From the IMG/VR virus record IMGVR_UViG_2778261217_000005: 21,722 bases of DNA. One strand, given 5' to 3'. The position numbers and the translations under genes are program-made. The notes below the pieces were generated by a model. It did not search any database. It saw nothing but the letters and a program-made list of their open reading frames with translations, and had not been told where the DNA came from. This DNA comes from a virus. Lineage: Duplodnaviria; Heunggongvirae; Uroviricota; Caudoviricetes. Positions 1,237 to 20,035 of the stretch are shown here, in pieces (within the stretch, counting starts at the first letter, position 1; the number at the start of each line of letters is the position of its first letter).

Positions 1237-1237
1237 A

Positions 1238-2794: not shown

Positions 2795-5387
2795 TTGCAT
2801 ATTCCTTAGCCCAGCGGGGCAGTGATAATGTCTTAATAGCTGGCCATTCATCGGTATTCAGGCAGTCAGACAGGGTTCTCAGATTGCGGTGATATTCCTG
2901 TTGACCTGCCAGTTTTGCTTCTTCGCCCATCATGAAAATTTCAACCGGATAACGTCCGCATTCAATAGTTGTGCTGGCAACCAGAAAAACGAAAGTTGGC
3001 TGCACTCCAAACTGTGCTTCATAACCGTCACTGTAGAATGCATCCTGAACGTGATAGCGGTAGTCGTAATAAGCGGTTTTGAATCGTTGAATATCCGCCG
3101 TAGTTTTCACGTCCATGATCCAGTGAAATTCAGGGATAATTTTGTCCGGACGGCACCGACACAAAATTCCTGTTTCAGGATCTTCCCAGTAAATTGATGA
3201 TTCAGCGTGTCCGGCGCTTTCAACAAGCCATTGCCCCAGCGGCAAAGCCATAACGCTTTGATACATGAGTTCAATTTTCCGGCCTTCTTCCGCAGTGATA
3301 ACCGTTTTTCCTGTGCTTGCGCATTCCATCAGAAACGCTTTCTCTTCTTCTTTTCCGGCGTTTGTACGGCGGTTAAATTCAGGTGCTACGATAAAGCGGT
3401 TACTGAATTCTTCCGGTTCAAGTACCCGGCAGTGGAAAGCGGTTCCTAAATCGAGCGTTTTTGTCTTTGTGGTGTCCACGGGGGCATTTTTACGCCACAA
3501 ATATAGTGCCGGAGTATCAGCAATGTCATCGAGCTGAGACTTACTGACACCGGGACCCGCGTGGTAATTCTCATTCGAAATTCCGTAATAAATACCTGGC
3601 TCTATGTCTTCTACGATTACGGGATCTGCGACTTCGCCAGTTTCATCACTGCAATCGCGATGCGGATCGCTGCCAGCATTCTCATTGTGCGGATGTTCAG
3701 CGCCTTCCATTTCCTCCGGATCATTTTCCTTAGCTTCAACCTGACTCTCTTCATCGAATGTTTCCTGGTATGTTGCGTCGCCCATCACCGCACCACAGTC
3801 AGGGCAGTTATCCCCGCCAGTCTGGCCGCAGGCATTGCAGGCTATTTCCGGTTCCTGTTGCACTACTGGCTCAGGTTGATTCATATCCGGGCTGGTTTTT
3901 TCCGTTTCTGGCTGGTTCTGGTACACACAATCGCGAGTCTGGATCCCCTTTACCCATTTCGGATCGTTCGGGTCGCTAATTCCGTCAACAAATTCACCAC
4001 GTGATGCAGCAAGCAATTTATCGGCATCGACAGGATTTTTTGATGGAATGTTTTTCCGGGCTTCATGGAGTTCTGCCCGCAGTTCCTGATATTTCGCATC
4101 AACAGAATTTACCTGTGACTGAGCATCCAGCGGCTGCGTGTCCTGATGATGTTCAGTTGCGTCCGGTTCCATTGTTTCAGCCTCTCCCTGTTCAACTGCC
4201 GTTGTTCCAGATGGTTGCGGTTTTTCTTCATCATCCTGTTTTCCTTCTTCTGTTACTCGCTGCGGCATCGGGGCAGAGGAGCGACCGCAGGCAATATCCA
4301 CGATTTCCGGATCAGGGTTGGCATGATCGGTTTCAGTCAGTACTTTGTTCAGATATTCAGTGACGTGCGCGGGGATGACCTCGATCCCAATTGGTGCTTC
4401 TTTTACGGACGCAACCACGATGGCGCGGGAATAATCCAGCCCGCCAGGCATGGTGATGAATTTGTCGCGGAAAACAGAAAAGGGCGGTTTATTTTCAGCG
4501 ATAATTTCCTCAATGCGTTTAGCGTGTGCCGGATGAAGGTTATAGATGTCCAGATCCATTGAACGGGCCAGTACGCCAGTGGCTACGTCGCGCGCCAGTG
4601 ACGTCAGATCGTGTACGAAACCTTCGCCGCGATCGGTGAGGTTTCCGCCGCCAGCATTAGCACCGGAAGCCGTGCGAGTGATGTGTGAAACACGATTACC
4701 CTTCATCCACTCTTTTGTCAGCAGTCCTCGATCGGTGTAGTCAGCGTTCAGGTATGCTTCGAAAAAAGCAGTTATCAGTCCCAGGTTTGAATTACCAGGA
4801 TTAGGGAAAACTTTGTCAGTGTCACGAACCAGTTTGTGGAGTTCGCGAATTTCCAGCGGGTCGAGCAGGCTGGTTTTGTGGGAAACAGCCAGGGCAGTAA
4901 CAGCCGGTAGTTCTTCAGCCCGAGCAATGTGTAATGCCTGGAGTCCGTCGCGTGAAACGTGCGTTACCGGTTTTTCGCTGCCGTGTTGAGCAAGCCAACG
5001 AATGGGCAGTTCCTGGCCAGAAATTGGGAGTAGCATATTCTCCTCAATCTCAGTCATGTCTTCGCCGTTGACGTTGGTATTGCCTTGATAGTGAGCGTTG
5101 TCTGGTGCTGCTCCCGGTTTTAGTTCCCATGTCATGGAGTCTTTGCTGAGTTGATAGCGTTCACTCCAGGTAAAATCGATCTCACCTTCAGCGGGCAGGT
5201 CATTAACGACAGGAAAATTCGTGGCAACAGCTTTAAAATAGCTGCTCAGTTTTTTACCTGACTTAACGATCAGGTAGTCCAGAGTGGCACAGGTCGATTC
5301 AAAATCGTCGCTTGCCCACAGGACGACGTCAGGTTCACCGGATGATTTTTTCGCTTTCCGTAACAGGAAGAGTGGTTTTGTGCTCAT
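2787..5387 (-). CDS. recE: RecE exonuclease VIII (866 aa)
   Basis: 866-aa ORF with acidic low-complexity middle region and C-terminal nuclease region; classic recE-recT pair. Confidence 0.9.
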
Positions 5388-5458
5388 TGTTTTTTAACCT
5401 CAACTCAGATTAAAATTCGTTTTGTTCAGTGAATGATCTTGCCGGATACACACTGTTC

Positions 5459-5483
5459 ATAGCCTGCGCCATACGCAGGCTAT
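5459..5483. other. Perfect 10-bp-stem hairpin (ATAGCCTGCG-ccata-CGCAGGCTAT) between racC stop and recE start
   Basis: Inverted repeat read directly; T-rich on the + side (TTCTTTC), no U-run on the gene (minus) side. Confidence 0.4.
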
Positions 5484-5488
5484 TTCTT

Positions 5489-5764
5489 TCAGATTTCACC
5501 TTTTAATTTCATTGCAATTAGAGTTGCCAGAAATTCGGCTTTTTTTTCTGCGGGCAGATTCTTTCCGGTATGCACCAGGCACATTTTTTTGACACCTTCG
5601 TGAAGTGTTTTAACGTTGCCTGATGGACCGTCGATATCAACCACAGTGAATGGGGTTTCTTTATTTTCTGTTTTAATCACGTAGCCAATACGCTTTCCTT
5701 CCAGATTAACTTCGTGAACAATGTCATCAGTAGTTACAACAGTGGCTTCATAACTGATAATCAT
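5489..5764 (-). CDS. racC: RacC-like protein (91 aa)
   Basis: Start at MIISYEATVVTTDD with AAGGAG SD; matches recalled RacC. Confidence 0.7.
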   Translation of the reverse strand: MIISYEATVVTTDDIVHEVNLEGKRIGYVIKTENKETPFTVVDIDGPSGNVKTLHEGVKKMCLVHTGKNLPAEKKAEFLATLIAMKLKGEI

Positions 5765-5838
5765 GTTTTTCTCCTTAATTAAGGTTGAGCGAATCCCTGC
5801 CATTGCTGGCATAATTTCAGTTTCGCATAGTCAGTTAA

Positions 5839-6009
5839 TTAAAGTTCGTGTGCCATCTGGTCTTTTTCGGCACATATTTCACTACAATATTTTTTCATTT
5901 CCGTCGTTGGGATAACTCCACGCATGAAATGAAGTGGTCTTTTAATGCTTTTGCTTTCTTTAACTTCTTTATCGCAAAGGTGGTAAGCACATTTTATTTT
6001 CTTAGTCAT
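5839..6009 (-). CDS. ydaE: Small Cys-rich protein YdaE-like (56 aa); below the ORF-track size cutoff
   Basis: Hand-translated reverse strand: [56 protein letters not shown]; its ATG overlaps the kilR stop (ATGA). Confidence 0.65.
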   Translation of the reverse strand: MTKKIKCAYHLCDKEVKESKSIKRPLHFMRGVIPTTEMKKYCSEICAEKDQMAHEL

Positions 6010-6230
6010 CACCATGACTCCGCCTTTACAGGTAAACCATCACGACCGAGGAAGACTTTAATCATGCGGTCAGTAATGCATGTTTTTGTGGTCAGGTTAC
6101 GAATATATAGTTTTCGCTTTTTAATATTGTTTGCCGAGGCAATATATGTCCGGCCTTCATGAAGAACATAATCGCCAGGAGTCACACACTGACGTGGTAT
6201 TTCATCAGTTCCGAAGTGATGTGCAATCAT
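6009..6230 (-). CDS. kilR: KilR, FtsZ-targeting killing protein (73 aa)
   Basis: Start at [15 protein letters not shown] with GGAG SD; matches recalled KilR. Confidence 0.75.
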
Positions 6231-6651
6231 AATTATCTCCATTTTTACAAATGAACTTTGTTGATGCGGTGCCTGGTGCCTCCAGGTGACTGCAACCAGT
6301 TAACAATTACAGTCGGCTTTCCCACCCAAACCAATAAGGACTAACATGACTTTTAACTGTGCCACGTGCGCTTAGCCGCATTCACCGCATCACAAAATTC
6401 ACTTTAAAAAGGGCGGACATCAGCCGAACTTCAAGAAAAAAACTGATGCCGCCAGGACTACACACAGCAATGTCGTTATTTACAACCGGAGGCGCACTCC
6501 CACCATTTAAATTTAACAGACAAGACCGACTCTTTATGGATATCGGAAATGCGCCTTCGTGTTGCGCCCAGTTTTATTTCACCACCTCCGGGCTTCGGTG
6601 GTTTCTGCTATACCCCTACAGCGAGAATATTGAATTAATCCAAATAATGGA

Positions 6652-7738: not shown

Positions 7739-7993
7739 ATGAACCAGAAAACACTTGAAGATGTAATCAAAACTGTTCGCGTTTCTGTTGTGGCCGACGT
7801 TTGTGGTGTCAGCCAAAGAGCAATCTACAAATGGATGGATAACGGAAAATTGCCTCGCACAGAATATACCGGCGAAACAAATTACGCTGAAAAAATCGCT
7901 CATGCATCAAACGGATTATTTTCTGCCGATGTAATTTTAACTATTGGCAGAAATAAAACTACTACGAAAAAGCTGATGGGAGTTGATTCATGA
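7739..7993 (+). CDS. ydaS: Cro-like HTH protein YdaS-like (84 aa from internal ATG)
   Basis: MNQKTLEDVIKTVRVSVVADVCGVSQRAIYKWMDNGKLP HTH; GAGGGTGAT SD. The longer ORF start at 7667 would lie 8 nt from the racR start and is unlikely. Confidence 0.65.
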   Translation: MNQKTLEDVIKTVRVSVVADVCGVSQRAIYKWMDNGKLPRTEYTGETNYAEKIAHASNGLFSADVILTIGRNKTTTKKLMGVDS

Positions 7994-8412
7994 AAATCAA
8001 GCATGAGCACATCGAGTCAGTGTTGTTAGCCCTGGCAGCCGAAAAAGGGCAGGCATGGGTAGCCAATGCCATTACTGAAGAATATCTGCGCCAGGGGGGC
8101 GGCGAATTGCCCCTGGTACCAGGCAAGGACTGGAATAATCAGCAGAACATCTATCACCGTTGGTTAAAAGGTGAAACGGAAGCGCAAAGGGAAAAAATTC
8201 AGAAACTGATCCCTGCAATTCTGGCAATCCTTCCGCGCGAGCTGCGTCACCGACTCTGCATCTTCGATACCCTGGAACGCCGTGCATTACTGGCGGCGCA
8301 GGAAGCGTTAAGTACGGCAATTGATGCGCATGATGATGCAGTCCAGGCCGTTTACCGGAAAGCGCATTTCAGCGGCGGCGGGTCTTCCGACGATTCTGTC
8401 ATTGTTCATTAA
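7990..8412 (+). CDS. ydaT: YdaT-like protein (140 aa), CII-like position
   Basis: MKIKHEHIESVLLALAAEKGQAWV...; its ATG overlaps the ydaS stop (ATGA). Confidence 0.75.
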   Translation: MKIKHEHIESVLLALAAEKGQAWVANAITEEYLRQGGGELPLVPGKDWNNQQNIYHRWLKGETEAQREKIQKLIPAILAILPRELRHRLCIFDTLERRALLAAQEALSTAIDAHDDAVQAVYRKAHFSGGGSSDDSVIVH

Positions 8413-8424
8413 GCAAAAGTTTCC

Positions 8425-9282
8425 ATGCTGTTTGTGCTTATTCTAAGCCACCGGGCAGCATCATACGGGGCAATTATGGCCGCATTACCATACATGCAAC
8501 TGTACATAGCTGATTACCTGGCTGACACCATGCATTTGTCAGCAGAGGAGCATGGCGCGTATTTGTTGCTGATGTTCAATTACTGGCAAACAGGAAAGCC
8601 AATACCTAAAAACAGGCTGGCAAAAATTGCCCGTCTGACTAACGAGCGATGGGCTGATGTTGAACCATCCTTGCAGGAGTTTTTTTGCGATAACGGCGTG
8701 GAATGGGTGCATCTTCGGATTGAGGAAGATCTGGCATCAGTCAGGGAAAAATTAACCAAAAAATCAGCCGCAGGAAAAGCCTCTGTTCAGGCCAGAAGAA
8801 GCAGAAAGGAAGCAGATGTTCAAACAAAACAAGAGAGAAATTTAACAGGTGTTCAAACAGATGTTGAAGTGGTGTTTGAACATGATGTCAACACAAAGGC
8901 AACTAATAAAGATACAGATAAAGATCTAAAAACAGATCCCCCCCTAAATCCCCCCCGGGGGAATCGAGGTGTCAAAAAGTTTGACCCTCTGGATATTGCT
9001 TTGCCGAACTGGATTTCTGTCTCGCTTTGGCGTGAGTGGGTTGAATTTCGCCAGGCATTGCGTAAACCGATTCGAACGGAGCAGGGCGCTAACGGGGCGA
9101 TACGGGAGCTGGAAAAATTCCGCCAGCAGGGTTTTTCACCTGAGCAGGTGATTCGACACAGCATCGCCAACGAATACCAGGGCTTGTTCGCGCCGAAAGG
9201 TGTTCGCCCTGAGACGTTACTCCGACGGGTTAACACTGTTTCGTTACCGGACAGTGCGATCCCGCCAGGCTTCAGGGGGTAA
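8425..9282 (+). CDS. ydaU: Replication protein YdaU-like (DUF1376-type), 285 aa
   Basis: Position upstream of DnaC-like gene; matches recalled YdaU; start not certain (no SD at 8425). Confidence 0.7.
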   Translation: MLFVLILSHRAASYGAIMAALPYMQLYIADYLADTMHLSAEEHGAYLLLMFNYWQTGKPIPKNRLAKIARLTNERWADVEPSLQEFFCDNGVEWVHLRIEEDLASVREKLTKKSAAGKASVQARRSRKEADVQTKQERNLTGVQTDVEVVFEHDVNTKATNKDTDKDLKTDPPLNPPRGNRGVKKFDPLDIALPNWISVSLWREWVEFRQALRKPIRTEQGANGAIRELEKFRQQGFSPEQVIRHSIANEYQGLFAPKGVRPETLLRRVNTVSLPDSAIPPGFRG

Positions 9283-9288
9283 CTGACC

Positions 9289-10035
9289 ATGAAAAATATT
9301 GCGACAGGCGGCGTTCTTGAACGTATCCGCAGACTGGCCCCGTCACATGTAACCGCGCCATTCAAGACGGTGGCGGAGTGGCGTGAGTGGCAACTTTCCG
9401 AAGGCCAGAAACGTTGTGAGGAGATCAACCGTCAGAATCGTCAGTTGCGGGTGGAAAAAATTCTGAATCGCTCTGGCATCCAGCCATTGCACCGCAAATG
9501 CTCGTTTTCGAATTACCAGGTGCAGAACGACGGTCAGCGATACGCGTTGAGCCAGGCGAAATTCATCGCCGATGAACTGATGGTCGGGTGTACAAATTTT
9601 GCGTTCAGTGGAAAACCTGGTACCGGGAAGAACCATTTAGCGGCAGCTATCGGGAATCGCCTGCTGAAAGATGGCCAGACAGTGATAGTGGTTACTGTGG
9701 CTGATGTTATGAGTGCCCTGCATGCCAGCTATGACGACGGGCAGTCAGGCGAAAAATTTTTGCGGGAACTGTGCGAAGTGGATCTGCTGGTTCTTGATGA
9801 AATTGGCATTCAGCGCGAGACAAAAAACGAGCAGGTGGTGCTGCACCAGATTGTTGATCGCCGGACAGCGTCGATGCGCAGCGTGGGGATGCTGACAAAC
9901 CTGAACTATGAGGCCATGAAAACATTGCTCGGCGAGAGGATTATGGATCGCATGACCATGAACGGCGGGCGATGGGTGAATTTTAACTGGGAGAGCTGGC
10001 GTCCGAATGTCGTCCAGCCAGGAATTGCGAAGTGA
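9289..10035 (+). CDS. ydaV: DnaC/IstB-like AAA+ helicase loader (248 aa)
   Basis: Walker [11 protein letters not shown], Walker B LLVLDEIG; AGGGGG SD. Confidence 0.85.
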
Positions 10036-10057
10036 TTTTTACCGGGAGGAAATTTTA

Positions 10058-10810
10058 ATGGAGACTGTTTTTGACGCACTGAAAGCGATGGGAAAAGCCA
10101 CATCGGTAGAACTGGCAACGCGACTTGATATCAGTCGTGAAGAAGTGCTGAACGAGCTGTGGGAACTGAAAAAGGCTGGCTTCGTTGATAAAAGCGTATA
10201 CACCTGGCGTGTAGCTGATAACAACGTTCAGCAGGAGCAGGCAGAACTGCCGGAGGAAACCACCACGGCAACAGTCGCGAAAATTTCGGAGAGCGATTTA
10301 ACAGCGACGATTGAGCAACGTGGACCACAAACGGCGGATGAACTGGCTACGCTGTTCGGTACCACATCCCGCAAAGTGGCTTCAACGCTGGCAATGGCAA
10401 TCAGCAAAGGTCGTCTGATTCGCGTTAATCAGAACGGTAAATTTCGTTACTGCATGCCGGGCGGTAATTTACCAGCAGAGCCGAAAGTTGAATCGGTAGC
10501 GGAAACCGATGGTAAAGCCTTTCCTCAGCCAGCCGATGTTGCGTTACCAGTACAGGAAGCGGCAACACAGGAAGATATTAAAACAGAAACTGTGGCGGAC
10601 ATTGTGCAGTCGCTGCCATCGTTTACCGAAACGCGGGCGGATGACCTGATTTTACCATCGCTGCTCATGGCAAACCGTGAGCTGCGTCGGGCGAAAAATC
10701 ATGTCCAGAAGTGGGAGCGTGTCTGCGCCGCGCTGCGGGAGCTGAACAAGTACCGGGATATTGTTCGACAGATTGTCGATTCCCCCAGTCGTATTGTGTC
10801 GGAAAAGTGA
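10058..10810 (+). CDS. YdaW-like protein with N-terminal winged-helix-like region (250 aa from internal ATG)
   Basis: Start [30 protein letters not shown] after GGAGG SD; longer ORF would overlap ydaV. Confidence 0.6.
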
Positions 10811-10825
10811 TTGCCGGAGGCGCTT

Positions 10826-11080
10826 ATGGCAAAAGTTTTTACACAGGAAGAGCGTGAAAAAATTAAGGAGCAGGTTGTTGAGCTGGTACGCCAGAGTGGG
10901 CGCGAGACGTTAAGGCAACTGGAGGCCAAGACAGGTGCGACAAGATATCTGATGAGCATTCTTGCCAGAGAGTTGGTTGCCAGTGGCGATGTATACAACT
11001 CTGGCTATGGGTTATTTCCCTCTGAACAGGCTCGTAAGGACTGGAAAAACGCCCGCAAAAAATATCCAGGGCAAAGGTGA
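10826..11080 (+). CDS. Hypothetical small protein (84 aa)
   Basis: Start MAKVFTQEEREKIKEQ with GGAGG SD; function unknown. Confidence 0.45.
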   Translation: MAKVFTQEEREKIKEQVVELVRQSGRETLRQLEAKTGATRYLMSILARELVASGDVYNSGYGLFPSEQARKDWKNARKKYPGQR

Positions 11081-11247
11081 AAAAAACGGTTGTGGTTGCT
11101 CCTGACCTTATCTGGTCATTACCAGACAGAGAAATACGCCGCTATGACGGGCGTCTGAATATAATCTGTAGCGAGTGCCGTAAGAGCGAAGTTATGAAGC
11201 GTGTACTGATGTTTTATCGAGGAAGTATCCAGGAATTTATTCGGTAA
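11077..11247 (+). CDS. Candidate small ORF (56 aa, GTG start) coupled to upstream stop (GTGA)
   Basis: Hand-translated VKKTVVVAPDLIWSLPDREIRRYDGRLNIICSECRKSEVMKRVLMFYRGSIQEFIR; one CxxC; weak SD. Confidence 0.25.
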   Translation: MKKTVVVAPDLIWSLPDREIRRYDGRLNIICSECRKSEVMKRVLMFYRGSIQEFIR

Positions 11248-11383
11248 GCAAAATCAAAATGTAATCGCTCAAGTTTAAGTTGGTGTATCTACGGCGCAGA
11301 GCCATCGCCTCATCTGGCACTGCGCTAAAATCAAATTTAGTTCCACTCTTTATTTCGTATCTGCTAAAACGCTACATAAGATT

Positions 11384-11656
11384 TTACTTTTTTAAAGAAT
11401 AAGGGAATATGTGCACCATATTGGAGGCTAGTGGATATATTCCTATGCTACGAGTTGTCTTTTTTAGTTGATCTATGCTTGCTTCTTTATCGGGAGCCCG
11501 GCCTCCCCACACTGTAACTCCCTCAGGTATATCGATTGGGCGACTTTTGTTTTCATCTGTGATTTCAATAGTTTCTCCATTGTTAAGCGTAATAATCAAC
11601 GATGACACGTCCAGGTGTTGTGTATTCCCATTTTTATTTTTAATGTCTATTTTCAT
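11384..11656 (-). CDS. Hypothetical protein (90 aa) in AT-rich island
   Basis: ORF with balanced charged composition; no SD; no recognised motif. Confidence 0.3.
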   Translation of the reverse strand: MKIDIKNKNGNTQHLDVSSLIITLNNGETIEITDENKSRPIDIPEGVTVWGGRAPDKEASIDQLKKTTRSIGIYPLASNMVHIFPYSLKK

Positions 11657-11813
11657 GGCTATTTCATTATATGTTATCTGTGCTGGAGTAATAAGTTTAC
11701 GGTATTAAGAAGCATTTTGACGAAACAATCAACTGACTTATCAGCTAAGGTGGCATTGTAATGCGATCTGATTGGTATCATCAGGACGCTGTTCAAAAAA
11801 GGGGTATTAGTTG

Positions 11814-11842
11814 ATCTTGAAATCTTGCTCAAAATATGTAGC
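11814..11842. repeat. Direct-repeat copy A (ATCTTGAAAT ... GCTCAAAATA ... TGTAGC) upstream of queH-like gene
   Basis: Shares 10-mer, 9-mer and 6-mer blocks with copy B at 12710-12756. Confidence 0.35.
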
Positions 11843-11926
11843 CTCTTGTTTAACTGCCAACTTTTTGGGGCAGTACACTATGATGCTACACAACTTGCAA
11901 GTTTCATTACCCCGACGTAAACATTT

Positions 11927-12595
11927 ATGACAGTTGCTGATTTCAAACGTCCTAAGTTGGAGCTCCCAAACGGGGCAAACAAACTACTATTACACTCTTG
12001 TTGTGCACCATGTTCCGGTGAAGTGATGGAGGCTCTTCAGGCCTCAGGAATCGACTACACCATCTTCTTCTATAATCCGAACATTCATCCTCAGAAAGAG
12101 TATTTGATTCGTAAGAATGAGAATATTCGATTTGCTGAACAACATGGTGTCCCGTTTATCGATGCTGATTACGACACTGACAACTGGTTTGAGCGAGCCA
12201 AAGGAATGGAATGGGAGCCAGAACGTGGGAGGCGTTGTACTATGTGTTTTGACATGCGTTTTGAACGGACGGCGCTGTACGCCGCTGAAAATGGTTTCAG
12301 TGTGATCAGCAGTTCACTGGGCATTTCACGCTGGAAAAATATGCAGCAGGTTAACGACAGCGGACGGCGAGCTGTCGCACATTATCCGGGCATGGTGTAC
12401 TGGGATTATAACTGGCGCAAGCAGGGAGGCTCGTCCCGCATGATTGAAATCAGCAAACGCGAACAATTCTATCAGCAGGAATATTGTGGTTGCGTGTATT
12501 CACTTCGCGATACCAATTTACACCGCAAATCCCAGGGACGCCCTCTTATCAAAATTGGTCAACTCCACTACGGTAAAGAAGAAGGGCAGGAATGA
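11927..12595 (+). CDS. queH: QueH-like epoxyqueuosine reductase (DUF208 family), 222 aa
   Basis: Motifs [19 protein letters not shown] and QEYCGCVYS match my recollection of the DUF208/QueH Cys pattern. Confidence 0.65.
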
Positions 12596-12709
12596 TTTTT
12601 ACATTACGTCAACAGAGTGTCACAACGTTTCTATATATGGTATGCCGACCGTAATTTTCGAATCATCATGCCTAATAGGTAGGTCACCTATGCCAGCAAT
12701 GACCTGCTC

Positions 12710-12756
12710 ATCTTGAAATTAGCAGAAATCTTGTAGCTATGATGTAGCTCAAAATA
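12710..12756. repeat. Direct-repeat copy B downstream of queH-like gene
   Basis: ATCTTGAAAT, GAAATCTTG, TGTAGC (x2), GCTCAAAATA blocks shared with copy A. Confidence 0.35.
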
Positions 12757-12904
12757 GTTTTTCATTCTTTTACCTGATGTCTGTTCCTGGCTGAAAACAG
12801 ACTGTATTATTTGATTACGCACCACTGACACTTGTGTATTGAAGTAGTGAGTACAAAGCCACATATTTATCAGTGTATGTATACGTCAAAAACAGGAGAT
12901 TGTT

Positions 12905-12994
12905 GTGCTGGTTCTGAAGTGTGCGTTAGCAATAGTGGCTGTGGTGGCAATTTATTGCCTTGTTGTTGTTCTTATGGAGCGACTTTCTGATTGA
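12905..12994 (+). CDS. Candidate 29-aa hydrophobic single-helix peptide (toxin-like or small membrane protein)
   Basis: AGGAG SD 6 nt upstream of GTG; hand-translated VLVLKCALAIVAVVAIYCLVVVLMERLSD; hydrophobic core with charged C-terminus. Confidence 0.3.
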   Translation: MLVLKCALAIVAVVAIYCLVVVLMERLSD

Positions 12995-13206
12995 TTACAT
13001 ACTGGCTAAAAAAAGCGTTTGCCTGGCTTATCTTTGTCCGGCAAGGTGCGCTCATTAATCTGAAGTAAATTTATTTCTTAAGTATTCAGATTACTTCTTA
13101 TGGTCGAAGTCTCCTGGCAATGTAGAACCAAAATATTTACAAAAACGAGACCCGTCGAGGATAGCTCTGCCGGGTCTGACTGTTAAAGTATTTTTAATAT
13201 GATCAT

Positions 13207-13545
13207 CTATTTTTTGGTGCTATAGACTTTTTCGCCTGAGAAGTCTGGAGCGACCCAAAAGTTAATATTAAACTGAGCATCATCGCTTAGTTCAACACGG
13301 TGCCAGTATTGTGGTGGGCTTGTTGCAAAAGAGCCAGCATTAATAACTACTTTTATCTCTGGTTCAGTAGTATTCTCATCAGCAAAACCATAATATGTTA
13401 CAGTGCCTTCCATTACGCACAACTGCCCAAAAACACCTGCTGCTGTATTATGATGTGTTAATAATGCTGAAGGTACGTTCTCTTTTGTGAAGAACGGAGT
13501 TGAGCGTTTGATTACCCAATCTTTAGGAATTCTCTTGTGTGTCAT
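13207..13545 (-). CDS. Small cupin-like protein (112 aa), possibly DUF1971/TehB-N-like
   Basis: ATG at 13545 preceded by AGGAGGTGG SD; family assignment is a weak recollection. Confidence 0.5.
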   Translation of the reverse strand: MTHKRIPKDWVIKRSTPFFTKENVPSALLTHHNTAAGVFGQLCVMEGTVTYYGFADENTTEPEIKVVINAGSFATSPPQYWHRVELSDDAQFNINFWVAPDFSGEKVYSTKK

Positions 13546-14416
13546 AACCACCTCCTATAAAACATGCATTATAAATGCACCTTTTGAGGAGTTATGTCAA
13601 GCTGTTATGAAACACATAATTGATATGTTGATTAGAGGAGAAGATAGAATAAATATGGTTGTTTTTCGTATAACTACTTGTTTTTCTTTTGGTTTATGCA
13701 TTCTGTGTGTTAGGAATAAGTTATTAAAGTTTAATCAAGAAATCTCGATGTATTCCACATAGATTACTGTTACTGAACCTTATTGTGTGCATTAGTTGTG
13801 TTCTGAAATTTCAGCTTAATTATTTATGATATATTTTTTAACGATAAATGTTTTCCCAGGTAAAAGACAGTTGGGAATAAGATAAGTAATATATCATTAA
13901 TCTTGATTATTTCCAGGGTGCCTTTACTGTGCATATAAATAAATCATATATGCATTAAATAATGTAAAGGCATCCTTTTAGATATATCTTATCAAATATT
14001 AATGACTTGAGTGGGAAACATGACTCCAGCAACTTATCATGTGGCTACTTTATAAAAATAATGCCCATATAAAACAACAAGCGAAAAGGATTACGGATAA
14101 AAAAGGAGCGAGATGTGCAAACTTGTTATTTTCCATGTTTAACCACCTTAAATAATTGATGATGACGGGATGATTGCATCTGTAATGCTTTTATTGAAAT
14201 GTTATGATAAAAAAGAACTTTTTCATAACATTAAAATGTAATTTAGCTAATCGTTTTTAATAATAAGTGTCGTATTTCTATCCTTGTACTAGCTATTTGA
14301 TATGTAGTGTTTGTTCATGCTATGTGGGGCTTTACACCATAGCCAGTTTATTTATACTTTATTCGTCAGCCTGAACAACTGGCATCTGCTGCACTGCGCC
14401 ATAGAGAGATTGAGAA

Positions 14417-15016
14417 ATGGCGCATATACAACTGGTCAAACAAACTTCTTCTGGTTTACTTCTCCCGGCGACGCCGGAGAGTTGTGATTTTCTGCATCAA
14501 ATTAAAATAGGCGAGTGGATACACGCTGATTTTAAGCGTGTGCGTAACTACGCATTCCACAAGCGTTTTTTCAAACTCCTGCAACTGGGATTCGATTACT
14601 GGACTCCGGTTGGTGGGGCGATCACGCCTCGCGAACGAGAACTGCTGTCTGGTTTCGTTGATTACCTGTGCGAATCAGTTGGTCGGGAACACACGCCAGC
14701 CCTGAGTGATGCCGCAGAGCAATATCTGAATACAGTGGCGACACGCAGAACCCGGGATACGGCATTGCTAAAGTCGTTTGAGGCTTTTCGCGAGTGGGTA
14801 ACCATTCAGGCTGGATTTTACACCGAACATTTTTATCCGGACGGTAGCCATGGGCGTCGGGCGAAATCCATCGCTTTTGCGAATATGGACGAAACCGAGT
14901 TTCAGCAGGTTTATAAATCTGTTCTGAATGTGCTGTGGAACTGGATTCTGTTCCGTAAATTTTCCTCTCTGGAACAAGTCGAAAATGTGGCCGCGCAGCT
15001 GCTGGAGTTTGCGTAA
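14417..15016 (+). CDS. DUF1367-family phage protein (YbcN-like), 199 aa
   Basis: Nin-region position; resembles recalled DLP12 YbcN family. Confidence 0.65.
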   Translation: MAHIQLVKQTSSGLLLPATPESCDFLHQIKIGEWIHADFKRVRNYAFHKRFFKLLQLGFDYWTPVGGAITPRERELLSGFVDYLCESVGREHTPALSDAAEQYLNTVATRRTRDTALLKSFEAFREWVTIQAGFYTEHFYPDGSHGRRAKSIAFANMDETEFQQVYKSVLNVLWNWILFRKFSSLEQVENVAAQLLEFA

Positions 15017-15306
15017 TGGTGGATTTACGTAAAGCGGCGCGGGGGCAGATGTGCACCGTCAGAATTCCTGGCTACTGCAATCACGATCCGGAAACGTCTG
15101 TGCTGGCGCATTACCGACTGGCGGGAACGTGCGGAACAGCGACAAAACCACACGATATGCAGGCGGCGATTGCCTGTAGCTCATGCCACGATCTAATCGA
15201 CGGGCGGGTAAAAACCAGCGATTACACCAAAGAAGAATTACGCCTGATGCATGCAGAAGGTGTTTTTCGCACACAAGAAATCTGGAGAAAGGAGGGATAT
15301 TTGTGA
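15016..15306 (+). CDS. DUF1364-family putative nuclease (YbcO-like), 96 aa
   Basis: MVDLRKAARGQMCTVRIPGYCNHDPETSVLAHYRL...ACSSCHD; resembles recalled YbcO; ATG overlaps upstream TAA. Confidence 0.7.
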   Translation: MVDLRKAARGQMCTVRIPGYCNHDPETSVLAHYRLAGTCGTATKPHDMQAAIACSSCHDLIDGRVKTSDYTKEELRLMHAEGVFRTQEIWRKEGYL

Positions 15307-15845
15307 TTTACCCAACGAATACAGGAAAAAGCGGAGAACACCTTCGTCTCGCCACGCTGGAAAGTGTCTGGATTCAGGGCAAACTGCGTATGTGGGGGCG
15401 CTGGTCGTATATTGGCGGTGGCAGGTCAGGAAATATGTTCAATCAGTTGTTGGCATCCAAAAAATTGACGAAAACAGCCATCAATGAAGCCCTGCGCAGA
15501 ATGAAAAAAGCGGGAATAGAGAAAGCTGAGCTGGAAGCGTTTTTGAGAGAGATGATCAACGGCAAGCAAAAGAGCTGGCTGGCGCATTGTACTGATGCAG
15601 AGGCGTTATGTATTGATCGAGTCATAAGTGAGGTGCTGGCAGAGCATCCAGGATTGATTAGCGTCCTTCGGCAACGGTATGAGGGGCGGGGGATGACCAA
15701 ACGCAAAATGGCTGAATTGCTAAATGATGCACACCCAGAGTGGTGTTTTAGCACATGCGAAAAGCGAATTGCTAATTGGTTGGCCGTTGCTGAGTATGCG
15801 CTATACATTCCCATGCGAGAATCATTCGCTCAAAAAACGGCTTGA
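15303..15845 (+). CDS. Putative late antiterminator Q-like protein (180 aa, GTG start)
   Basis: Immediately precedes tRNAs and lysis genes; AGGAGG SD 7 nt before in-frame GTG overlapping ybcO-like stop; the annotated ATG at 15183 would overlap the upstream gene by 124 nt. Confidence 0.5.
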   Translation: MIYPTNTGKSGEHLRLATLESVWIQGKLRMWGRWSYIGGGRSGNMFNQLLASKKLTKTAINEALRRMKKAGIEKAELEAFLREMINGKQKSWLAHCTDAEALCIDRVISEVLAEHPGLISVLRQRYEGRGMTKRKMAELLNDAHPEWCFSTCEKRIANWLAVAEYALYIPMRESFAQKTA

Positions 15846-15870
15846 TTTTTTACGCATAAACTGCTTCAAT
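15842..15870 (+). promoter_or_regulatory. Candidate late promoter (TTGATT -N17- TTCAAT) overlapping Q stop
   Basis: Hexamers read directly; analogous to lambda PR' position; weak -10. Confidence 0.3.
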
Positions 15871-15930
15871 TTTGCTACGCTTCGCAAAGCTGTATCGCGT
15901 GGCGAATCAAGCGCAATTAAACTTTAATAG

Positions 15931-15960
15931 AACCCGCATCGAGCGGGTTTTGTTGTTTTT
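15931..15960 (+). terminator. Rho-independent terminator (AACCCGC-atcga-GCGGGTT + T-run), candidate tR'
   Basis: 7-bp perfect GC-rich stem followed by TTTTGTTGTTTTT. Confidence 0.6.
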
Positions 15961-16197
15961 GTGGTGTGATATAAGAAACGACATTTAATAATTGCCTTCA
16001 AAATAAATTTGTTTATATATTGTCGCGTATATTTTAAATGAAGGTGAAATGTTCACATAAAATAAAAATACATAAATAAATTTGCATAACTTGACGCAAA
16101 GTGTTGTTGCGATTGGAATATTAAATCGTATTATCGAAAACGGTTCTGAGGGGGAACTCTTCTTTGATCGGTGATATCGCTCCCCTGAAGAACCAAT

Positions 16198-16273
<76 letters not shown>

Positions 16274-16276
16274 TAT

Positions 16277-16351
<75 letters not shown>

Positions 16352-16715
16352 GCATTTGAAACAAGTCTTATTGTATTGCGGCACTGGCGTATTTTTTATT
16401 ACGTGGGAGCAGGTTGTTTTGGAAAAGCATTCTGTTCTCTGGCTATGATTTGAGGCCAGGTGTAGCCTCAGTGCTGATTTTTTTACGACAGCAGAATGGT
16501 GCATTGTCGGTGGAGATTTTGTATTTCCTGGCAGGGTCGGTGATGCATCATTCTGGTGTTGTAAAAGCACCACAGAGGTGTTCCTCAGTGCGAGGGTGGT
16601 TTATATAGTGGTTTAGCGGGGAATCACAATATTTGTTGTAGGGACAGATATTTCGGGAGGCACCCGACACCTCGATTTTTATTACAATTAAAATGATTTA
16701 TCTTATACATTGACC

Positions 16716-16741
16716 AACCGCCATATCTGGCGGTTTTTTTT
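16716..16741 (+). terminator. Rho-independent terminator (AACCGCCA-tatc-TGGCGGTT + T8)
   Basis: 8-bp stem followed by eight T; read directly. Confidence 0.6.
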
Positions 16742-17129
16742 ATACCTGCATCAGACAAAAAAAGACACAAGCATCCAGGAATACTCGTGGGACAACGTCC
16801 TTTAGATAGCAATTTGCGAGAGGGTGAAAAGTAGCGCGGTCGTCGGATTAAGACCGCGGGACAAAGTCCATGAAGAATAATAAGTATTGGCCCCCTTCTG
16901 GGGATATGTTCATACTACTAAGCTTCAGAAGTGGTTTAAATCATCAAATTAACCTTAATTTTCGATAAGTCTTATTTCATTTCTTTGCGCCACATCTGGC
17001 GCGCATCAAATAACGCCACGCAAAGGGCATCTGCGGATGCCGGTGCTTTTGACGGGGTGTTTTTTACGGGCCGCTGGTGGCCATTTTTTGTTTCCGTTAC
17101 ACAGCGCCCGCATCTGCGAGGTGGGGGTT

Positions 17130-17345
17130 ATGAAATCCATGGATAAGTTAACAACGGGTGTCGCCTATGGCACCTCCGCAGGCAGTGCTGGCTACTGGTT
17201 TTTACAGCTGCTCGATAAAGTCACGCCCTCACAGTGGGCAGCAATAGGTGTGCTGGGTAGCTTGGTATTTGGCCTGCTGACGTACCTGACAAACCTTTAT
17301 TTCAAGATTAAAGAAGATAAGCGCAAGGCTGCGAGAGGTGAATAA
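17130..17345 (+). CDS. Class II pinholin, phage-21 S-like (71 aa) with dual-start motif MKSM
   Basis: [45 protein letters not shown]... closely resembles recalled S21/EssD; GAGGTGGGGG SD. Confidence 0.85.
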
Positions 17346-17842
17346 TGCCTCCATCATTACGAAAAGCCGTTGCTGCTGCTATTGGTGGCGGAGCAATTGC
17401 TATAGCATCAGTGTTAATCACTGGCCCAAGTGGTAACGATGGTCTGGAAGGTGTCAGCTACATACCATACAAAGATATTGTTGGTGTATGGACTGTATGT
17501 CACGGGCATACAGGAAAAGACATCATGCTCGGTAAAACGTATACCAAAGCAGAATGCAAGGCACTCTTGAATAAAGACCTTGCCACTGTCGCCAGACAAA
17601 TTAACCCGTACATCAAAGTCGATATACCGGAAACAACGCGCGGCGCTCTTTACTCATTCGTTTACAACGTGGGTGCTGGCAATTTCAGAACATCGACGCT
17701 TCTTCGCAAAATAAACCAGGGCGATATCAAAGGCGCATGTGATCAGCTACGTCGCTGGACATATGCTGGCGGTAAGCAATGGAAAGGTCTCATGACTCGT
17801 CGTGAGATTGAGCGTGAAATCTGTTTGTGGGGTCAGCAATGA
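17345..17842 (+). CDS. SAR endolysin, T4-lysozyme-like (165 aa)
   Basis: N-terminal Gly/Ala-rich signal-anchor-release segment; catalytic triad positions E35, D44, T50 present as in phage 21 R; ATG overlaps holin stop. Confidence 0.85.
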
Positions 17843-18303
17843 ACAGAGTAACCGCGATTATCTCCGCTCTGGTTATCTGCATCATCGTCTGCCTGTCATG
17901 GGCTGTTAATCATTACCGTGATAACGCCATTACCTATAAAGCCCAGCGCGACAAAAATGCCAGAGAACTGAAGCTGGCGAACGCGGCAATTACTGACATG
18001 CAGATGCGTCAGCGTGATGTTGCTGCGCTCGATGCAAAATACACGAAGGAGTTAGCTGATGCGAAAGCTGAAAATGATGCTCTGCGTGATGATGTTGCCG
18101 CTGGTCGTCGTCGGTTGCACATCAAAGCAGTCTGTCAGTCAGTGCGTGAAGCCACCACCGCCTCCGGCGTGGATAATGCAGCCTCCCCCCGACTGGCAGA
18201 CACCGCTGAACAGGATTATTTCACCCTCCGGGAACGACTGGTAATGATGCAGGCCCAACTTGAAGGAGCTCAGCAATACATAACCGAACAGTGTTTAAAG
18301 TAA
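17839..18303 (+). CDS. rzpR: Rz i-spanin (154 aa)
   Basis: N-terminal TM segment, coiled-coil-like Ala/Arg/Gln-rich periplasmic part; start overlaps endolysin stop. Confidence 0.8.
18059..18244 (+). CDS. rzoR: Rz1 o-spanin lipoprotein embedded in Rz in the +1 frame (61 aa)
   Basis: Lipobox LVVVGC, proline-rich mature part ([15 protein letters not shown]). Confidence 0.75.
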
Positions 18304-18440
18304 AATCTTAACTACAATATGATTTATTTTGATGATTGTTTCATAAGGAACAGTGAAGTAAGATCTAAGAGGAGTTAAATTTTATACAGTATAATCATAA
18401 TATTGCAGCAAGGTGGTTATAATTGAAAGAATATTTAGAT

Positions 18441-19898
18441 ATGAATACATCTCATGTAAGAGTTGTTACTCATATGTGTGGGTTCCTGGTTTGGCTCTAT
18501 AGTCTTTCAATGTTGCCACCAATGGTTGTAGCATTGTTTTATAAAGAAAAAAGCCTGTTCGTTTTCTTTATAACCTTCGTTATATTTTTTTGCATTGGTG
18601 GCGGAGCGTGGTATACAACTAAGAAATCTGGCATTCAATTACGTACCCGTGATGGGTTTATTATAATTGTAATGTTTTGGATTTTGTTTTCTGTTATTAG
18701 TGCATTCCCTTTATGGATTGACTCAGAACTTAATTTAACGTTCATTGATGCTCTTTTTGAAGGGGTTTCTGGAATAACAACAACAGGAGCAACTGTAATT
18801 GATGATGTTAGTTCATTACCTCGGGCATATTTGTACTATCGGTCACAGTTAAATTTTATAGGTGGTTTAGGAGTTATTGTTCTGGCGGTTGCTGTATTGC
18901 CATTATTGGGTATTGGTGGTGCAAAGCTTTATCAGTCAGAAATGCCGGGGCCATTTAAGGATGACAAACTCACTCCCCGCCTGGCCGATACGTCACGGAC
19001 ACTGTGGATAACTTATTCTTTATTAGGTATTGCTTGTATTGTCTGTTATAGACTTGCAGGAATGCCTTTGTTTGATGCTATTTGTCACGGGATTTCCACA
19101 GTTTCGCTTGGTGGTTTCTCAACTCATAGCGAGAGTATCGGATATTTTAATAACTATTTGGTTGAGCTGGTGGCTGGTTCTTTTTCCCTGCTATCGGCTT
19201 TCAACTTCACTCTTTGGTATATTGTTATTAGCAGGAAAACGATAAAACCTTTAATCAGAGATATTGAACTTCGTTTCTTTCTGTTAATAGCCTTAGTGGT
19301 GATCATTGTTACCTCTTTCCAGGTCTGGCATATAGGTATGTATGACTTGCATGGAAGTTTTATTCATTCGTTTTTTCTTGCCAGCTCCATGCTCACTGAT
19401 AATGGTTTAGCTACGCAAGATTATGCAAACTGGCCCACGCACACGATAGTGTTTTTGCTGTTGTCAAGTTTCTTTGGGGGATGTATAGGTTCAACTTGTG
19501 GTGGAATTAAGTCACTTCGATTTCTTATACTTTTCAAACAAAGCAAACACGAGATAAATCAGCTTTCTCATCCCAGAGCGTTGTTGAGTGTAAATGTAGG
19601 AGGGAAGATAGTTACAGATCGTGTAATGAGGTCTGTATGGAGTTTCTTTTTTCTTTATACTCTCTTCACGGTGTTTTTTATACTGGTGTTAAATGGTATG
19701 GGATATGATTTTCTTACATCATTTGCAACAGTGGCTGCATGTATTAATAATATGGGATTAGGTTTTGGGGCTACTGCATCGTCATTCGGAGTGCTTAATG
19801 ACATTGCAAAATATTTAATGTGCATAGCTATGATTCTTGGTCGCCTTGAAATTTATCCTGTTATTATATTGTTTTCAGGTTTTTTTTGGCGCTCCTAA
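18441..19898 (+). CDS. trkG: TrkG potassium uptake transporter (485 aa)
   Basis: MNTSHVRVVTHMCGFLVWLYSL...; multi-pass membrane protein with repeated GG selectivity-like motifs; start at ATG 18441 (track ORF begins at upstream TTG). Confidence 0.85.
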   Translation: MNTSHVRVVTHMCGFLVWLYSLSMLPPMVVALFYKEKSLFVFFITFVIFFCIGGGAWYTTKKSGIQLRTRDGFIIIVMFWILFSVISAFPLWIDSELNLTFIDALFEGVSGITTTGATVIDDVSSLPRAYLYYRSQLNFIGGLGVIVLAVAVLPLLGIGGAKLYQSEMPGPFKDDKLTPRLADTSRTLWITYSLLGIACIVCYRLAGMPLFDAICHGISTVSLGGFSTHSESIGYFNNYLVELVAGSFSLLSAFNFTLWYIVISRKTIKPLIRDIELRFFLLIALVVIIVTSFQVWHIGMYDLHGSFIHSFFLASSMLTDNGLATQDYANWPTHTIVFLLLSSFFGGCIGSTCGGIKSLRFLILFKQSKHEINQLSHPRALLSVNVGGKIVTDRVMRSVWSFFFLYTLFTVFFILVLNGMGYDFLTSFATVAACINNMGLGFGATASSFGVLNDIAKYLMCIAMILGRLEIYPVIILFSGFFWRS

Positions 19899-19984
19899 TA
19901 TATGGCTGATTTATAATTGTGAGTTTAATATTATATTGACTCACTCATTGATCCAATACCTAACTTTACCAGCAACACCTCCGC

Positions 19985-20018: not shown

Positions 20019-20035
20019 TCATAAAGCAAGGCTGT

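What the first reader, a model, noticed from the sequence alone, without database searches (positions are those of the whole stretch)
11927..12595. Prophage-borne QueH-like epoxyqueuosine reductase
The ORF carries the Cys pattern I associate with DUF208/QueH (CCAPCS, CxxC, YCGC). E. coli normally completes queuosine synthesis with the cobalamin-dependent QueG, so a phage-carried, cobalamin-independent QueH analogue would be a metabolic or tRNA-modification moron. It sits about 3.6 kb upstream of phage tRNA genes, although those tRNAs (Thr, Gly) are not Q-modified species.
Basis: partly seen in the sequence, partly recalled or inferred. Interest (0 to 1): 0.6.

Follow-up and report, generated by a model that had tools for sequence, protein, structure and literature searches.

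The report
Prophage copy of tRNA enzyme QueH
The ORF is a genuine, intact gene for QueH, the vitamin-B12-independent enzyme that finishes the tRNA base queuosine, carried by a Rac-type prophage of E. coli; public databases already name it QueH and it is found in about one in five E. coli genomes, so it is real but not new.

Summary
Window 11927-12595 (+) encodes a 222-aa protein that matches Pfam QueH (PF02677) end to end at 221.5 bits (cutoff 23.5). It matches the solved Thermotoga maritima QueH by sequence (E 3e-22) and by predicted fold (TM 0.87, rmsd 2.1 A). It keeps every invariant residue of the family, including all six Cys.

The window is a fuller version of the Rac prophage. The K-12 copy of Rac has lost a 7.4-kb segment that contains this gene. 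The same gene is in 995 of 5426 complete E. coli genomes, where RefSeq already names it "epoxyqueuosine reductase QueH". All 5426 genomes also carry queG, so queH is always a second route for this step.

In prophages the gene nearly always follows the DUF977 gene at the end of the replication module. It was intact in 80 of 80 viral contigs examined, and dN/dS is about 0.03. Its closest relatives (80-86% identity) are housekeeping QueH genes of other Enterobacterales, so it looks like a captured host gene.

Three things were not shown: enzyme activity, expression in the lysogen, and any fitness benefit. The nearby tRNA-Thr and tRNA-Gly genes are not substrates. This is an ordinary, already annotated family member with an understudied phage context, so interest is low to moderate.

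The parts
11927..12595 (+). queH coding sequence (222 aa plus stop): cobalamin-independent epoxyqueuosine reductase
   Evidence: ORF listing. Pfam PF02677 at 221.5 bits, E 1.1e-65. PDB 7lc5 at E 3e-22. Fold match TM 0.87. All invariant family residues present. PGAP names the identical protein QueH.
11999..12013 (+). Codons for C25-C26-A-P-C29, the N-terminal metal-ligand motif. C25 aligns with T. maritima C9 and C29 with T. maritima D13.
   Evidence: Alignment to 7lc5. PDB mutant entries 9d86 (C9S) and 9dco (D13N) mark these positions as functionally probed. Column 29 is Cys in 58 of 63 diverse family members and Asp in 5.
12236..12247 (+). Codons for C104-T-M-C107 (CxxC), preceded by the invariant R103
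   Evidence: C104 and C107 are invariant in 63 of 63 sequences.
12482..12493 (+). Codons for Y186-C187-G188-C189 (YCGC)
   Evidence: C187, G188 and C189 are invariant in 63 of 63 sequences.
11884..11892 (+). TGCTACACA, a conserved element 35 nt upstream of the ATG and a possible extended -10 promoter captured with the gene (inference)
   Evidence: TGCTACAC is shared by all prophage alleles and by the chromosomal Erwinia copy at the same distance from the start codon. The generic promoter scan did not report it and found no more sites than chance.
12026..12028 (+). Internal ATG (Met34) that phage gene callers often take as the start, producing a truncated protein without CCAPC
   Evidence: PHROG phrog_3217 ('unknown function') matches only residues 34-219. 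Several database representatives begin at residue 34. Codons 1-33 differ between alleles almost only synonymously, so ATG 11927 is the real start.
10499..17858 (.). 7.4-kb segment of the Rac prophage that is absent from E. coli K-12 Rac. It holds DUF977, queH, DUF1971, DUF1367, YbcO, a DUF1133/Q-like antiterminator, tRNA-Thr, tRNA-Gly and the start of the lysis cassette.
   Evidence: blastn of the window against K-12 Rac. K-12 annotation shows ydaW followed directly by rzpR. Pfam assignments of the neighbours.

Best explanation
The ORF is a functional queH gene carried as cargo by a Rac-type lambdoid prophage. By homology, its product is an iron-sulfur enzyme. Solved T. maritima QueH has a [4Fe-4S] cluster with an adjacent single iron; that detail comes from my memory of Li et al. 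2021 and was not re-read here. The enzyme removes the epoxide oxygen of epoxyqueuosine (oQ) at position 34 of host tRNA-Asp, -Asn, -His and -Tyr to give queuosine, and it does so without cobalamin. The host already does this step with the cobalamin-dependent QueG. E. coli cannot make B12 de novo, so the prophage gives its host, or itself during lytic growth, a B12-independent way to complete Q. The gene was captured from the chromosome of another member of the Enterobacterales and has since been kept under selection at a fixed place in lambdoid phage genomes: directly after the replication module and on the same strand as the early-right operon. Shown here: family membership, fold, conserved ligands, redundancy with queG, conserved position, purifying selection, and housekeeping origin of the nearest relatives. 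Inferred: enzyme activity, time of expression, and benefit.
For: Family and fold:
- Pfam QueH scores 221.5 bits against a 23.5 cutoff and covers the full profile.
- phmmer to PDB 7lc5 QueH gives E 3e-22 over residues 20-196.
- The AF2 model has pLDDT 83 and pTM 0.84. The top five Foldseek PDB hits are all T. maritima QueH, with TM 0.87 and rmsd 2.1 A. The next hits (TtuA, MnmA and other adenine-nucleotide alpha-hydrolase folds) have TM of 0.57 or less.
- In 63 diverse family members, C25, C26, C104, C107, C187, C189, N52, R103, Q184 and G188 are invariant, and the window protein has all of them. Position 29 carries the majority Cys.

Relatives and host background:
- The closest non-E. coli relatives are 80-86% identical and are named QueH in Erwinia, Providencia, Proteus, Photorhabdus and others. 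They sit in housekeeping neighbourhoods: purL-queH-glrK in Erwinia and tmcA-queH-purC in Providencia.
- queG is in 5426 of 5426 E. coli genomes and queH in 995 of 5426.

Selection and position:
- dN/dS is 0.027-0.045 between prophage alleles at dS 0.26-0.44.
- 80 of 80 IMG/VR loci have an intact full-length ORF with CCAPC. 70 of 77 have DUF977 just upstream on the same strand.
- The same arrangement appears in five annotated contexts, including the isolated phage HannyBb.
- QueH is cited in the literature as the cobamide-independent alternative to QueG (PMC6461909; PMC5372724).
Against: - No experiment on this protein or any E. coli prophage QueH was found in the searchable literature.
- There is no recognisable Shine-Dalgarno sequence before ATG 11927.
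- The promoter and terminator scan found nothing above chance, so expression level and timing are unknown.
- NCBIfam has no model hit for the protein.
- No phenotype of oQ versus Q is known in E. coli (my knowledge), so the selective benefit is unexplained.
- In this window allele the conserved upstream element ends in A (TGCTACACA) where most alleles have T. This would weaken a -10 box.
Confidence: 0.85

Rival explanations
1. The enzyme activity is the same, but the beneficiary is the phage. Under this reading queH is a delayed-early lytic gene transcribed from the early-right promoter, not a lysogenic-conversion gene. It shifts host tRNA from oQ to Q during infection to tune translation of phage genes or to blunt a host response.
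For: In every context examined the gene is co-oriented with, and immediately downstream of, the replication genes of the early-right operon. No autonomous promoter or terminator stands out. A bona fide isolated temperate phage, HannyBb, carries it. In Shewanella, phage infection raises host queG expression and the Q/oQ ratio, so this step does respond to infection (bioRxiv 10.64898/2026.03.05.709803).
Against: The TGCTACAC element shared with the chromosomal Erwinia gene suggests the gene brought its own promoter. The gene is kept intact in heavily decayed, non-inducible Rac remnants such as EcPF15, where terminase, portal and tape-measure genes are pseudogenes, which argues for benefit to the host. 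The two readings are not mutually exclusive.
Confidence: 0.3
2. The gene is a neutral hitch-hiker: a captured host gene with no current function in E. coli, on its way to decay.
For: It is fully redundant with queG. It lies in an AT-rich cargo island alongside orphan and unknown genes. The neighbouring DUF977 gene is frameshifted in this window.
Against: dN/dS is about 0.03 across alleles with dS up to 0.44. 80 of 80 copies are intact. 983 of 995 genomic copies cover at least 80% of the query and are annotated as intact QueH. All catalytic-type residues are retained.
Confidence: 0.05
3. The enzyme has been repurposed for another substrate, for example a 7-deazaguanine derivative in phage DNA or a different epoxide, rather than tRNA oQ.
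For: Phages are known to use queuosine-pathway enzymes for DNA modification (my knowledge; mentioned in PMC5372724). PHROGs lists the family as function unknown.
Against: The ORF listing, the Pfam scan of ten neighbours and the RefSeq annotation of the matching genome show no DpdA/TGT-like, QueC, QueD or QueE gene. The annotated queH-bearing contexts show none either. The protein is 80-86% identical to housekeeping QueH of related bacteria, which leaves little room for a change of specificity. No oQ-type DNA base is known (my knowledge).
Confidence: 0.03

Closest known systems
Thermotoga maritima QueH (PDB 7lc5, 7lc7, 9d86, 9dco, 9deu), the structurally characterised member of PF02677/IPR003828
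   Same: Same family and fold (E 3e-22; TM 0.87, rmsd 2.1 A over 180 columns). The same six Cys and the same N, R and Q invariant positions.
   Different: Only about 31% identical. The window protein has Cys29 where T. maritima has Asp13; Cys is the majority state in the family at 58 of 63. It also has a 19-residue N-terminal and roughly 25-residue C-terminal extension. It is encoded on a prophage rather than a chromosome.
Chromosomal QueH of other Enterobacterales (Erwinia, Providencia, Proteus, Photorhabdus, Gibbsiella, Sodalis)
   Same: 80-86% amino-acid identity over the full length and the same length class of 214-222 aa. The TGCTACAC element upstream of the start codon is shared with Erwinia.
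   Different: Those genes lie among housekeeping genes: purL/glrK in Erwinia, and tmcA/purC in Providencia. This one lies in a lambdoid prophage between the replication and antitermination modules.
E. coli QueG (yjeS), the cobalamin- and Fe-S-dependent epoxyqueuosine reductase
   Same: Same reaction (oQ34 to Q34 in tRNA) according to the literature (PMC5372724; PMC13443448). Both genes are present together in queH+ strains.
   Different: The two families are described as non-orthologous; I did not compare the sequences here. QueG needs B12 and QueH does not. queG is core (5426 of 5426 genomes), while queH is accessory and phage-borne (995 of 5426).
QueG plus QueH co-occurrence in Staphylococcus aureus
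   Same: Two redundant reductases with different cofactors in one genome. Different expression profiles have been reported and interpreted as adaptation to cofactor availability (PMC13443448).
   Different: I have no evidence that the S. aureus copies are phage-borne; this was not checked here. In E. coli the second enzyme arrives by prophage and is strain-variable.

Membership tests
QueH (Pfam PF02677, formerly DUF208; InterPro IPR003828) | Sequence scores above the curated family threshold over the whole domain | tested here: met
   221.5 bits against a gathering score of 23.5, E 1.1e-65, profile positions 1-174 of 175
QueH (Pfam PF02677, formerly DUF208; InterPro IPR003828) | Six invariant cysteines (CC..., CxxC, CGC) that provide the metal ligands | tested here: met
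   C25, C26, C104, C107, C187 and C189 are present and are invariant in 63 of 63 diverse members
QueH (Pfam PF02677, formerly DUF208; InterPro IPR003828) | Cys or Asp at the column of T. maritima Asp13 (the position probed by the D13N mutant, PDB 9dco) | tested here: met
   Cys29. The column is Cys in 58 of 63 and Asp in 5 of 63
QueH (Pfam PF02677, formerly DUF208; InterPro IPR003828) | Fold of solved QueH | tested here: met
   AF2 model with pLDDT 83. Foldseek top hits are 7lc5, 7lc7, 9d86, 9dco and 9deu, with TM (target) 0.84-0.87 and rmsd 2.1-3.6 A
QueH (Pfam PF02677, formerly DUF208; InterPro IPR003828) | Binds a [4Fe-4S] cluster plus an adjacent iron | not testable with these tools
   Needs purified protein with UV-vis, EPR and metal analysis
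QueH (Pfam PF02677, formerly DUF208; InterPro IPR003828) | Reduces epoxyqueuosine-tRNA to queuosine-tRNA (complements a queG deletion) | not testable with these tools
   Needs genetics and LC-MS. No report for this protein was found
Phage moron (lysogenic-conversion cargo gene) | Inserted between conserved phage modules, variably present among related phages, with base composition unlike its neighbours | tested here: met
   Lies in a GC 0.27-0.42 island (window 11000-14400) between modules of GC 0.50-0.56; queH itself is 0.48-0.49. Absent from K-12 Rac and from 4431 of 5426 genomes
Phage moron (lysogenic-conversion cargo gene) | Own promoter and terminator | tested here: inconclusive
   The scan found no more promoter-like or terminator-like sites than in shuffled sequence. 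A conserved TGCTACAC element 35 nt upstream, shared with the chromosomal Erwinia copy, may be an extended -10. No riboswitch or other Rfam element was found
Phage moron (lysogenic-conversion cargo gene) | Expressed from the repressed prophage and beneficial to the lysogen | not testable with these tools
   Needs transcript mapping and competition experiments

The most novel reading that the evidence does not exclude
Lambdoid phages of E. coli keep QueH because the oQ-to-Q step is a control point in phage-host conflict. By completing queuosine independently of host B12 supply, the phage would set the modification state of tRNA-Asp, -Asn, -His and -Tyr. That could favour its own translation, or change how host tRNA-directed stress or defence responses act during infection or lysogeny. 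A phage-borne enzyme that edits host tRNA anticodons would then be a common and so far unstudied trait of about 18% of E. coli strains.
Probability: 0.12. Interest if true: 0.6.

Novelty: already known. Interest (0 to 1): 0.27.

Why it matters
If the enzyme is active, roughly one in five E. coli strains can finish queuosine without vitamin B12. The laboratory strain K-12 cannot, because its Rac prophage has lost the 7.4-kb segment that carries the gene. Results on oQ versus Q obtained in K-12 would then not transfer to many natural and pathogenic isolates, including O157:H7.

There is also a practical point for annotation. Phage pipelines often call this gene from an internal Met34 and label it 'hypothetical' (PHROG 3217, 'unknown function'; phage HannyBb). 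This hides a recognisable tRNA-modification enzyme in phage genome records.

As a finding it is confirmatory. The family, the chemistry and the annotation of this exact protein already exist.

Tried and rejected
- **Riboswitch or other structured RNA near queH:** none at gathering thresholds across the window, apart from RalA and two tRNAs. None at E<=1 in 11200-14450.
- **Generic sigma-70 promoter and intrinsic terminator scan of 11200-14500:** counts no higher than in shuffled sequence.
- **NCBIfam:** no model hit, although PGAP names the protein QueH.
- **Functional link to the nearby tRNA genes:** rejected. They are tRNA-Thr(UGU) and tRNA-Gly(UCC), which are not Q-bearing species.
- **Functional link to the adjacent DUF1971 gene:** rejected as a conserved pairing. 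It occurs within 4 kb downstream in only 3 of 80 viral loci, and it is absent from the queH flanks (7-9 kb each side) annotated in the O157, AR_0086, strain 3908 and HannyBb contexts.
- **DNA-modification role:** the ORF listing, the Pfam scan of ten neighbours and the RefSeq annotation of the matching genome show no DpdA/TGT, QueC, QueD or QueE partner gene.
- **Primary QueH papers:** Zallot 2017, Li 2021 and Miles 2011 are not held. The metal-site description and the list of experimentally validated QueH proteins therefore rest on my memory and on PDB entry titles.
- **Literature on prophage-borne QueH in E. coli:** nothing relevant was found. Many hits were the author name 'Quehenberger' or other DUF208x families.
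- **Other 'phage' records with QueH homologs:** human faecal contigs, 280-380 kb 'phage' records of Acinetobacter and Staphylococcus, and short Listeria records. These are unannotated, or implausibly large or small, so I did not count them as evidence of phage carriage.

Full report
**Observation**

It runs from ATG at 11927 to the stop ending at 12595 on the + strand and encodes 222 aa. The motifs CCAPCS (residues 25-30), CTMC (104-107) and YCGC (186-189) are all present. ARAGORN finds tRNA-Thr(TGT) at 16198-16273 and tRNA-Gly(TCC) at 16277-16351, which is 3.6 kb downstream.

**What the protein is**

- Pfam gives a single full-length hit to PF02677 (QueH, formerly DUF208): 221.5 bits against a gathering score of 23.5, E 1.1e-65, profile positions 1-174 of 175.
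- A sequence search of the PDB finds only Thermotoga maritima QueH (7lc5 and its mutants), at E 3e-22 over residues 20-196.
- An AlphaFold2 model built on 39 homologs has mean pLDDT 83 and pTM 0.84.
- Foldseek against the PDB returns the five T. maritima QueH entries as the top hits, with TM normalised to target 0.84-0.87 and rmsd 2.1 A over 180 columns for 7lc5. After a clear gap come other adenine-nucleotide alpha-hydrolase-type folds such as TtuA and MnmA.
- I aligned 62 diverse full-length relatives with the window protein. They were taken from a search of 1.84 billion representatives, which gave 4733 hits at E<=1e-3, plus the T. maritima sequence. C25, C26, N52, R103, C104, C107, Q184, C187, G188 and C189 are invariant, and the window protein has all of them.
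- The residue aligned with T. maritima Asp13 is Cys29 here. PDB entry 9dco is the D13N mutant and 9d86 is C9S. Cys is the majority state of that column (58 of 63) and Asp the minority (5 of 63). The window protein therefore carries the typical family motif.
- NCBIfam has no model for it.
- The detailed metal-site description ([4Fe-4S] plus an adjacent iron) is from my memory of Li et al. 2021, which is not held in the library.

**The start codon**

PHROG phrog_3217 ('unknown function') matches only residues 34-219. Several database representatives begin at residue 34. Many gene callers evidently start at the internal Met34, which has a GGTGA-like sequence in front of it, while ATG 11927 has no Shine-Dalgarno sequence.

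Codons 1-33 are nevertheless coding. Among four alleles the many nucleotide differences in this stretch are synonymous, apart from V3I and N18K. Residues 21-32 are invariant across enterobacterial QueH proteins. A protein starting at Met34 would lack three of the seven cysteines. This truncation probably explains why phage annotation calls the gene 'hypothetical', as in phage HannyBb.

**Genomic setting**

- The window is a Rac prophage. It is 99% identical to K-12 Rac over 1-6626 and 17859-20289, and 96% identical over 7984-10498.
- K-12 Rac lacks window 10499-17858. In K-12, ydaW is followed directly by rzpR.
- That 7.4-kb segment holds DUF977, queH, DUF1971, DUF1367, YbcO, a DUF1133/Q-like antiterminator, the two tRNAs and the beginning of the lysis cassette.
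- queH lies in an AT-rich island (GC 0.27-0.42 over about 11000-14400) between modules of GC 0.50-0.56. The gene itself is 0.48-0.49.

**Distribution**

- The gene is found in 995 of 5426 complete E. coli genomes: 43 at >=99% nucleotide identity, 871 at 90-95% and 81 at 80-90%. It is almost always single-copy and chromosomal, and PGAP annotates it as 'epoxyqueuosine reductase QueH'.
- queG is present in 5426 of 5426 genomes. The prophage gene is therefore always a second, non-homologous enzyme for the same step.
- In IMG/VR, 192 viral contigs encode a relative. The best 80 are 96-100% identical at the protein level.
- All 80 of those have an intact full-length ORF with CCAPC. 70 of 77 with enough upstream sequence have a DUF977 gene on the same strand just upstream, and 66 of 80 have hokD within 4 kb downstream.
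- Five annotated contexts show the same placement at the end of the replication module, co-oriented with the early-right operon and ahead of the nin-like and antiterminator genes. These are EcPF15 Rac, an O157:H7 prophage, AR_0086, a turkey isolate, and the isolated temperate phage HannyBb.
- Only one isolated phage in GenBank (HannyBb) carries a close copy.

**Selection and origin**

Between divergent prophage alleles, dS is 0.26-0.44 while dN is 0.010-0.016, giving dN/dS of 0.027-0.045. That is strong purifying selection.

The nearest non-E. coli proteins are 80-86% identical and are named QueH in Erwinia, Providencia, Proteus, Photorhabdus, Gibbsiella, Sodalis and others. Where I looked, they sit in housekeeping neighbourhoods:
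- Erwinia: purL-queH-glrK-...-glnB-hmp-glyA.
- Providencia: tmcA-DUF441-queH-...-purC.

The prophage gene is thus best read as a host housekeeping gene captured by a lambdoid phage. About 45 nt upstream of the ATG is conserved among alleles. The core TGCTACAC (window 11884-11892, about 35 nt before the ATG) is also present at the same place before the Erwinia chromosomal gene. It resembles an extended -10 (TGnTAcAcT), so the gene may have brought its own promoter. This is an inference only. The generic scan found nothing above chance, and no Rfam element lies nearby.

**Mechanism**

Established knowledge, as summarised in PMC5372724 and PMC10723273, gives the pathway. Tgt inserts preQ1 at position 34 of tRNA-Asp, -Asn, -His and -Tyr. 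QueA then converts it to epoxyqueuosine, and QueG or QueH reduces that to queuosine. QueG is cobalamin-dependent, and QueH is the cobamide-independent alternative (PMC6461909; PMC13443448).

E. coli does not make B12 de novo, and older work reports that it accumulates oQ when B12 is absent (my knowledge; the primary paper is not held). The most likely role of the prophage gene is therefore a B12-independent route to Q. I cannot decide whether it acts in the lysogen (moron-like) or during lytic growth from the early-right transcript.
- For a host benefit: the gene is retained intact in decayed Rac remnants, and it has a shared upstream element.
- For lytic expression: the conserved operon position.

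A recent preprint reports that phage infection of Shewanella raises host queG expression and the Q/oQ ratio. This shows that the step can respond to infection.

**Rivals**

- Neutral decay is contradicted by the selection and intactness data.
- A change of substrate, such as DNA 7-deazaguanines, is unlikely. No DpdA/TGT or QueC, QueD or QueE partner gene appears in the ORF listing, the Pfam scan of ten neighbours or the RefSeq annotation of the matching genome, or in the related contexts. The protein is also 80-86% identical to housekeeping enzymes.
- The neighbouring tRNA-Thr and tRNA-Gly are not Q substrates and sit in the usual lambdoid tRNA slot after the antiterminator gene. They are unrelated to queH.

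**Novelty and verdict**

However, the identical protein (WP_001595668.1) is already named QueH in RefSeq, and the gene is common. I found no paper in the searchable library that discusses prophage-borne QueH in E. coli, but the key QueH papers could not be read.

What I can add:
- the quantitative picture (18% of genomes, always alongside queG);
- the conserved phage position;
- the strong purifying selection;
- the housekeeping origin of the nearest relatives;
- the K-12 deletion;
- the Met34 mis-annotation.

Interest is low to moderate. This is an ordinary family member in an understudied but easily testable context.

Noticed in passing
window 10499-17858: This 7.4-kb stretch is cleanly missing from the Rac prophage of E. 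coli K-12, where ydaW abuts rzpR. The window is therefore a more complete Rac that retains the antiterminator, tRNAs, lysis genes and cargo genes.
   Followed up: yes
window 12026 (Met34 of QueH): PHROG phrog_3217 ('unknown function') and several database proteins start at this internal Met and so lack the CCAPC motif. This is a systematic gene-calling truncation that hides the identity of the gene in phage annotations; HannyBb, for example, lists it as hypothetical.
   Followed up: yes
window 10811-11080 and 11077-11247 (+): The DUF977 gene upstream of queH is split into two overlapping ORFs that match profile positions 1-81 and 85-134. It is a single 423-nt gene in strain EcPF15. This is probably a frameshift in this strain or a sequencing error.
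   Followed up: partly
window 13207-13551 (-): A 114-aa DUF1971 protein (PF09313; phrog_34268, unknown function) is encoded on the opposite strand in the most AT-rich part of the window (GC 0.27-0.39). It is another cargo gene. It accompanies queH in only 3 of 80 viral loci, so it is not a partner.
   Followed up: partly
window 11384-11656 (-): A 90-aa ORF with no Pfam or PHROG match, annotated as hypothetical in RefSeq. It lies in an insertion between DUF977 and queH that is specific to this allele class: the gap here is about 680 nt, against about 180 nt in most prophages.
   Followed up: no
window 1532-1813 (-) and 1557-1735 (+): The RalR/RalA type I toxin-antitoxin pair of Rac. The Rfam RalA match scores 222.9 bits over the full-length model, antisense to the adjacent toxin region.
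   Followed up: no
window 16198-16351 (+): tRNA-Thr(UGU) and tRNA-Gly(UCC) lie 3 nt apart, between the DUF1133/Q-like antiterminator gene and the lysis cassette. This is the usual tRNA slot of lambdoid phages. Other queH-bearing prophages carry tRNA-Ile and tRNA-Arg there instead (L005).
   Followed up: partly
window 11884-11892; L089 about 40 nt upstream of its queH: The TGCTACAC element is conserved between the prophage queH alleles and the chromosomal Erwinia queH at the same distance from the start codon. It may be an extended -10 promoter. This window allele has A instead of T at the last position.
   Followed up: partly
L004 9900-11910 (O157:H7 strain Z1812): In this O157:H7 prophage a DNA cytosine methyltransferase and an NgoMIV-family restriction endonuclease sit immediately downstream of queH. 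The slot after queH is therefore a cargo hot spot, holding hokD, a restriction-modification system or DUF1971 in different phages.
   Followed up: no
window 18423-19898 (+): trkG, the potassium transporter gene known as Rac cargo, is present as in K-12 (99% identical region).
   Followed up: no
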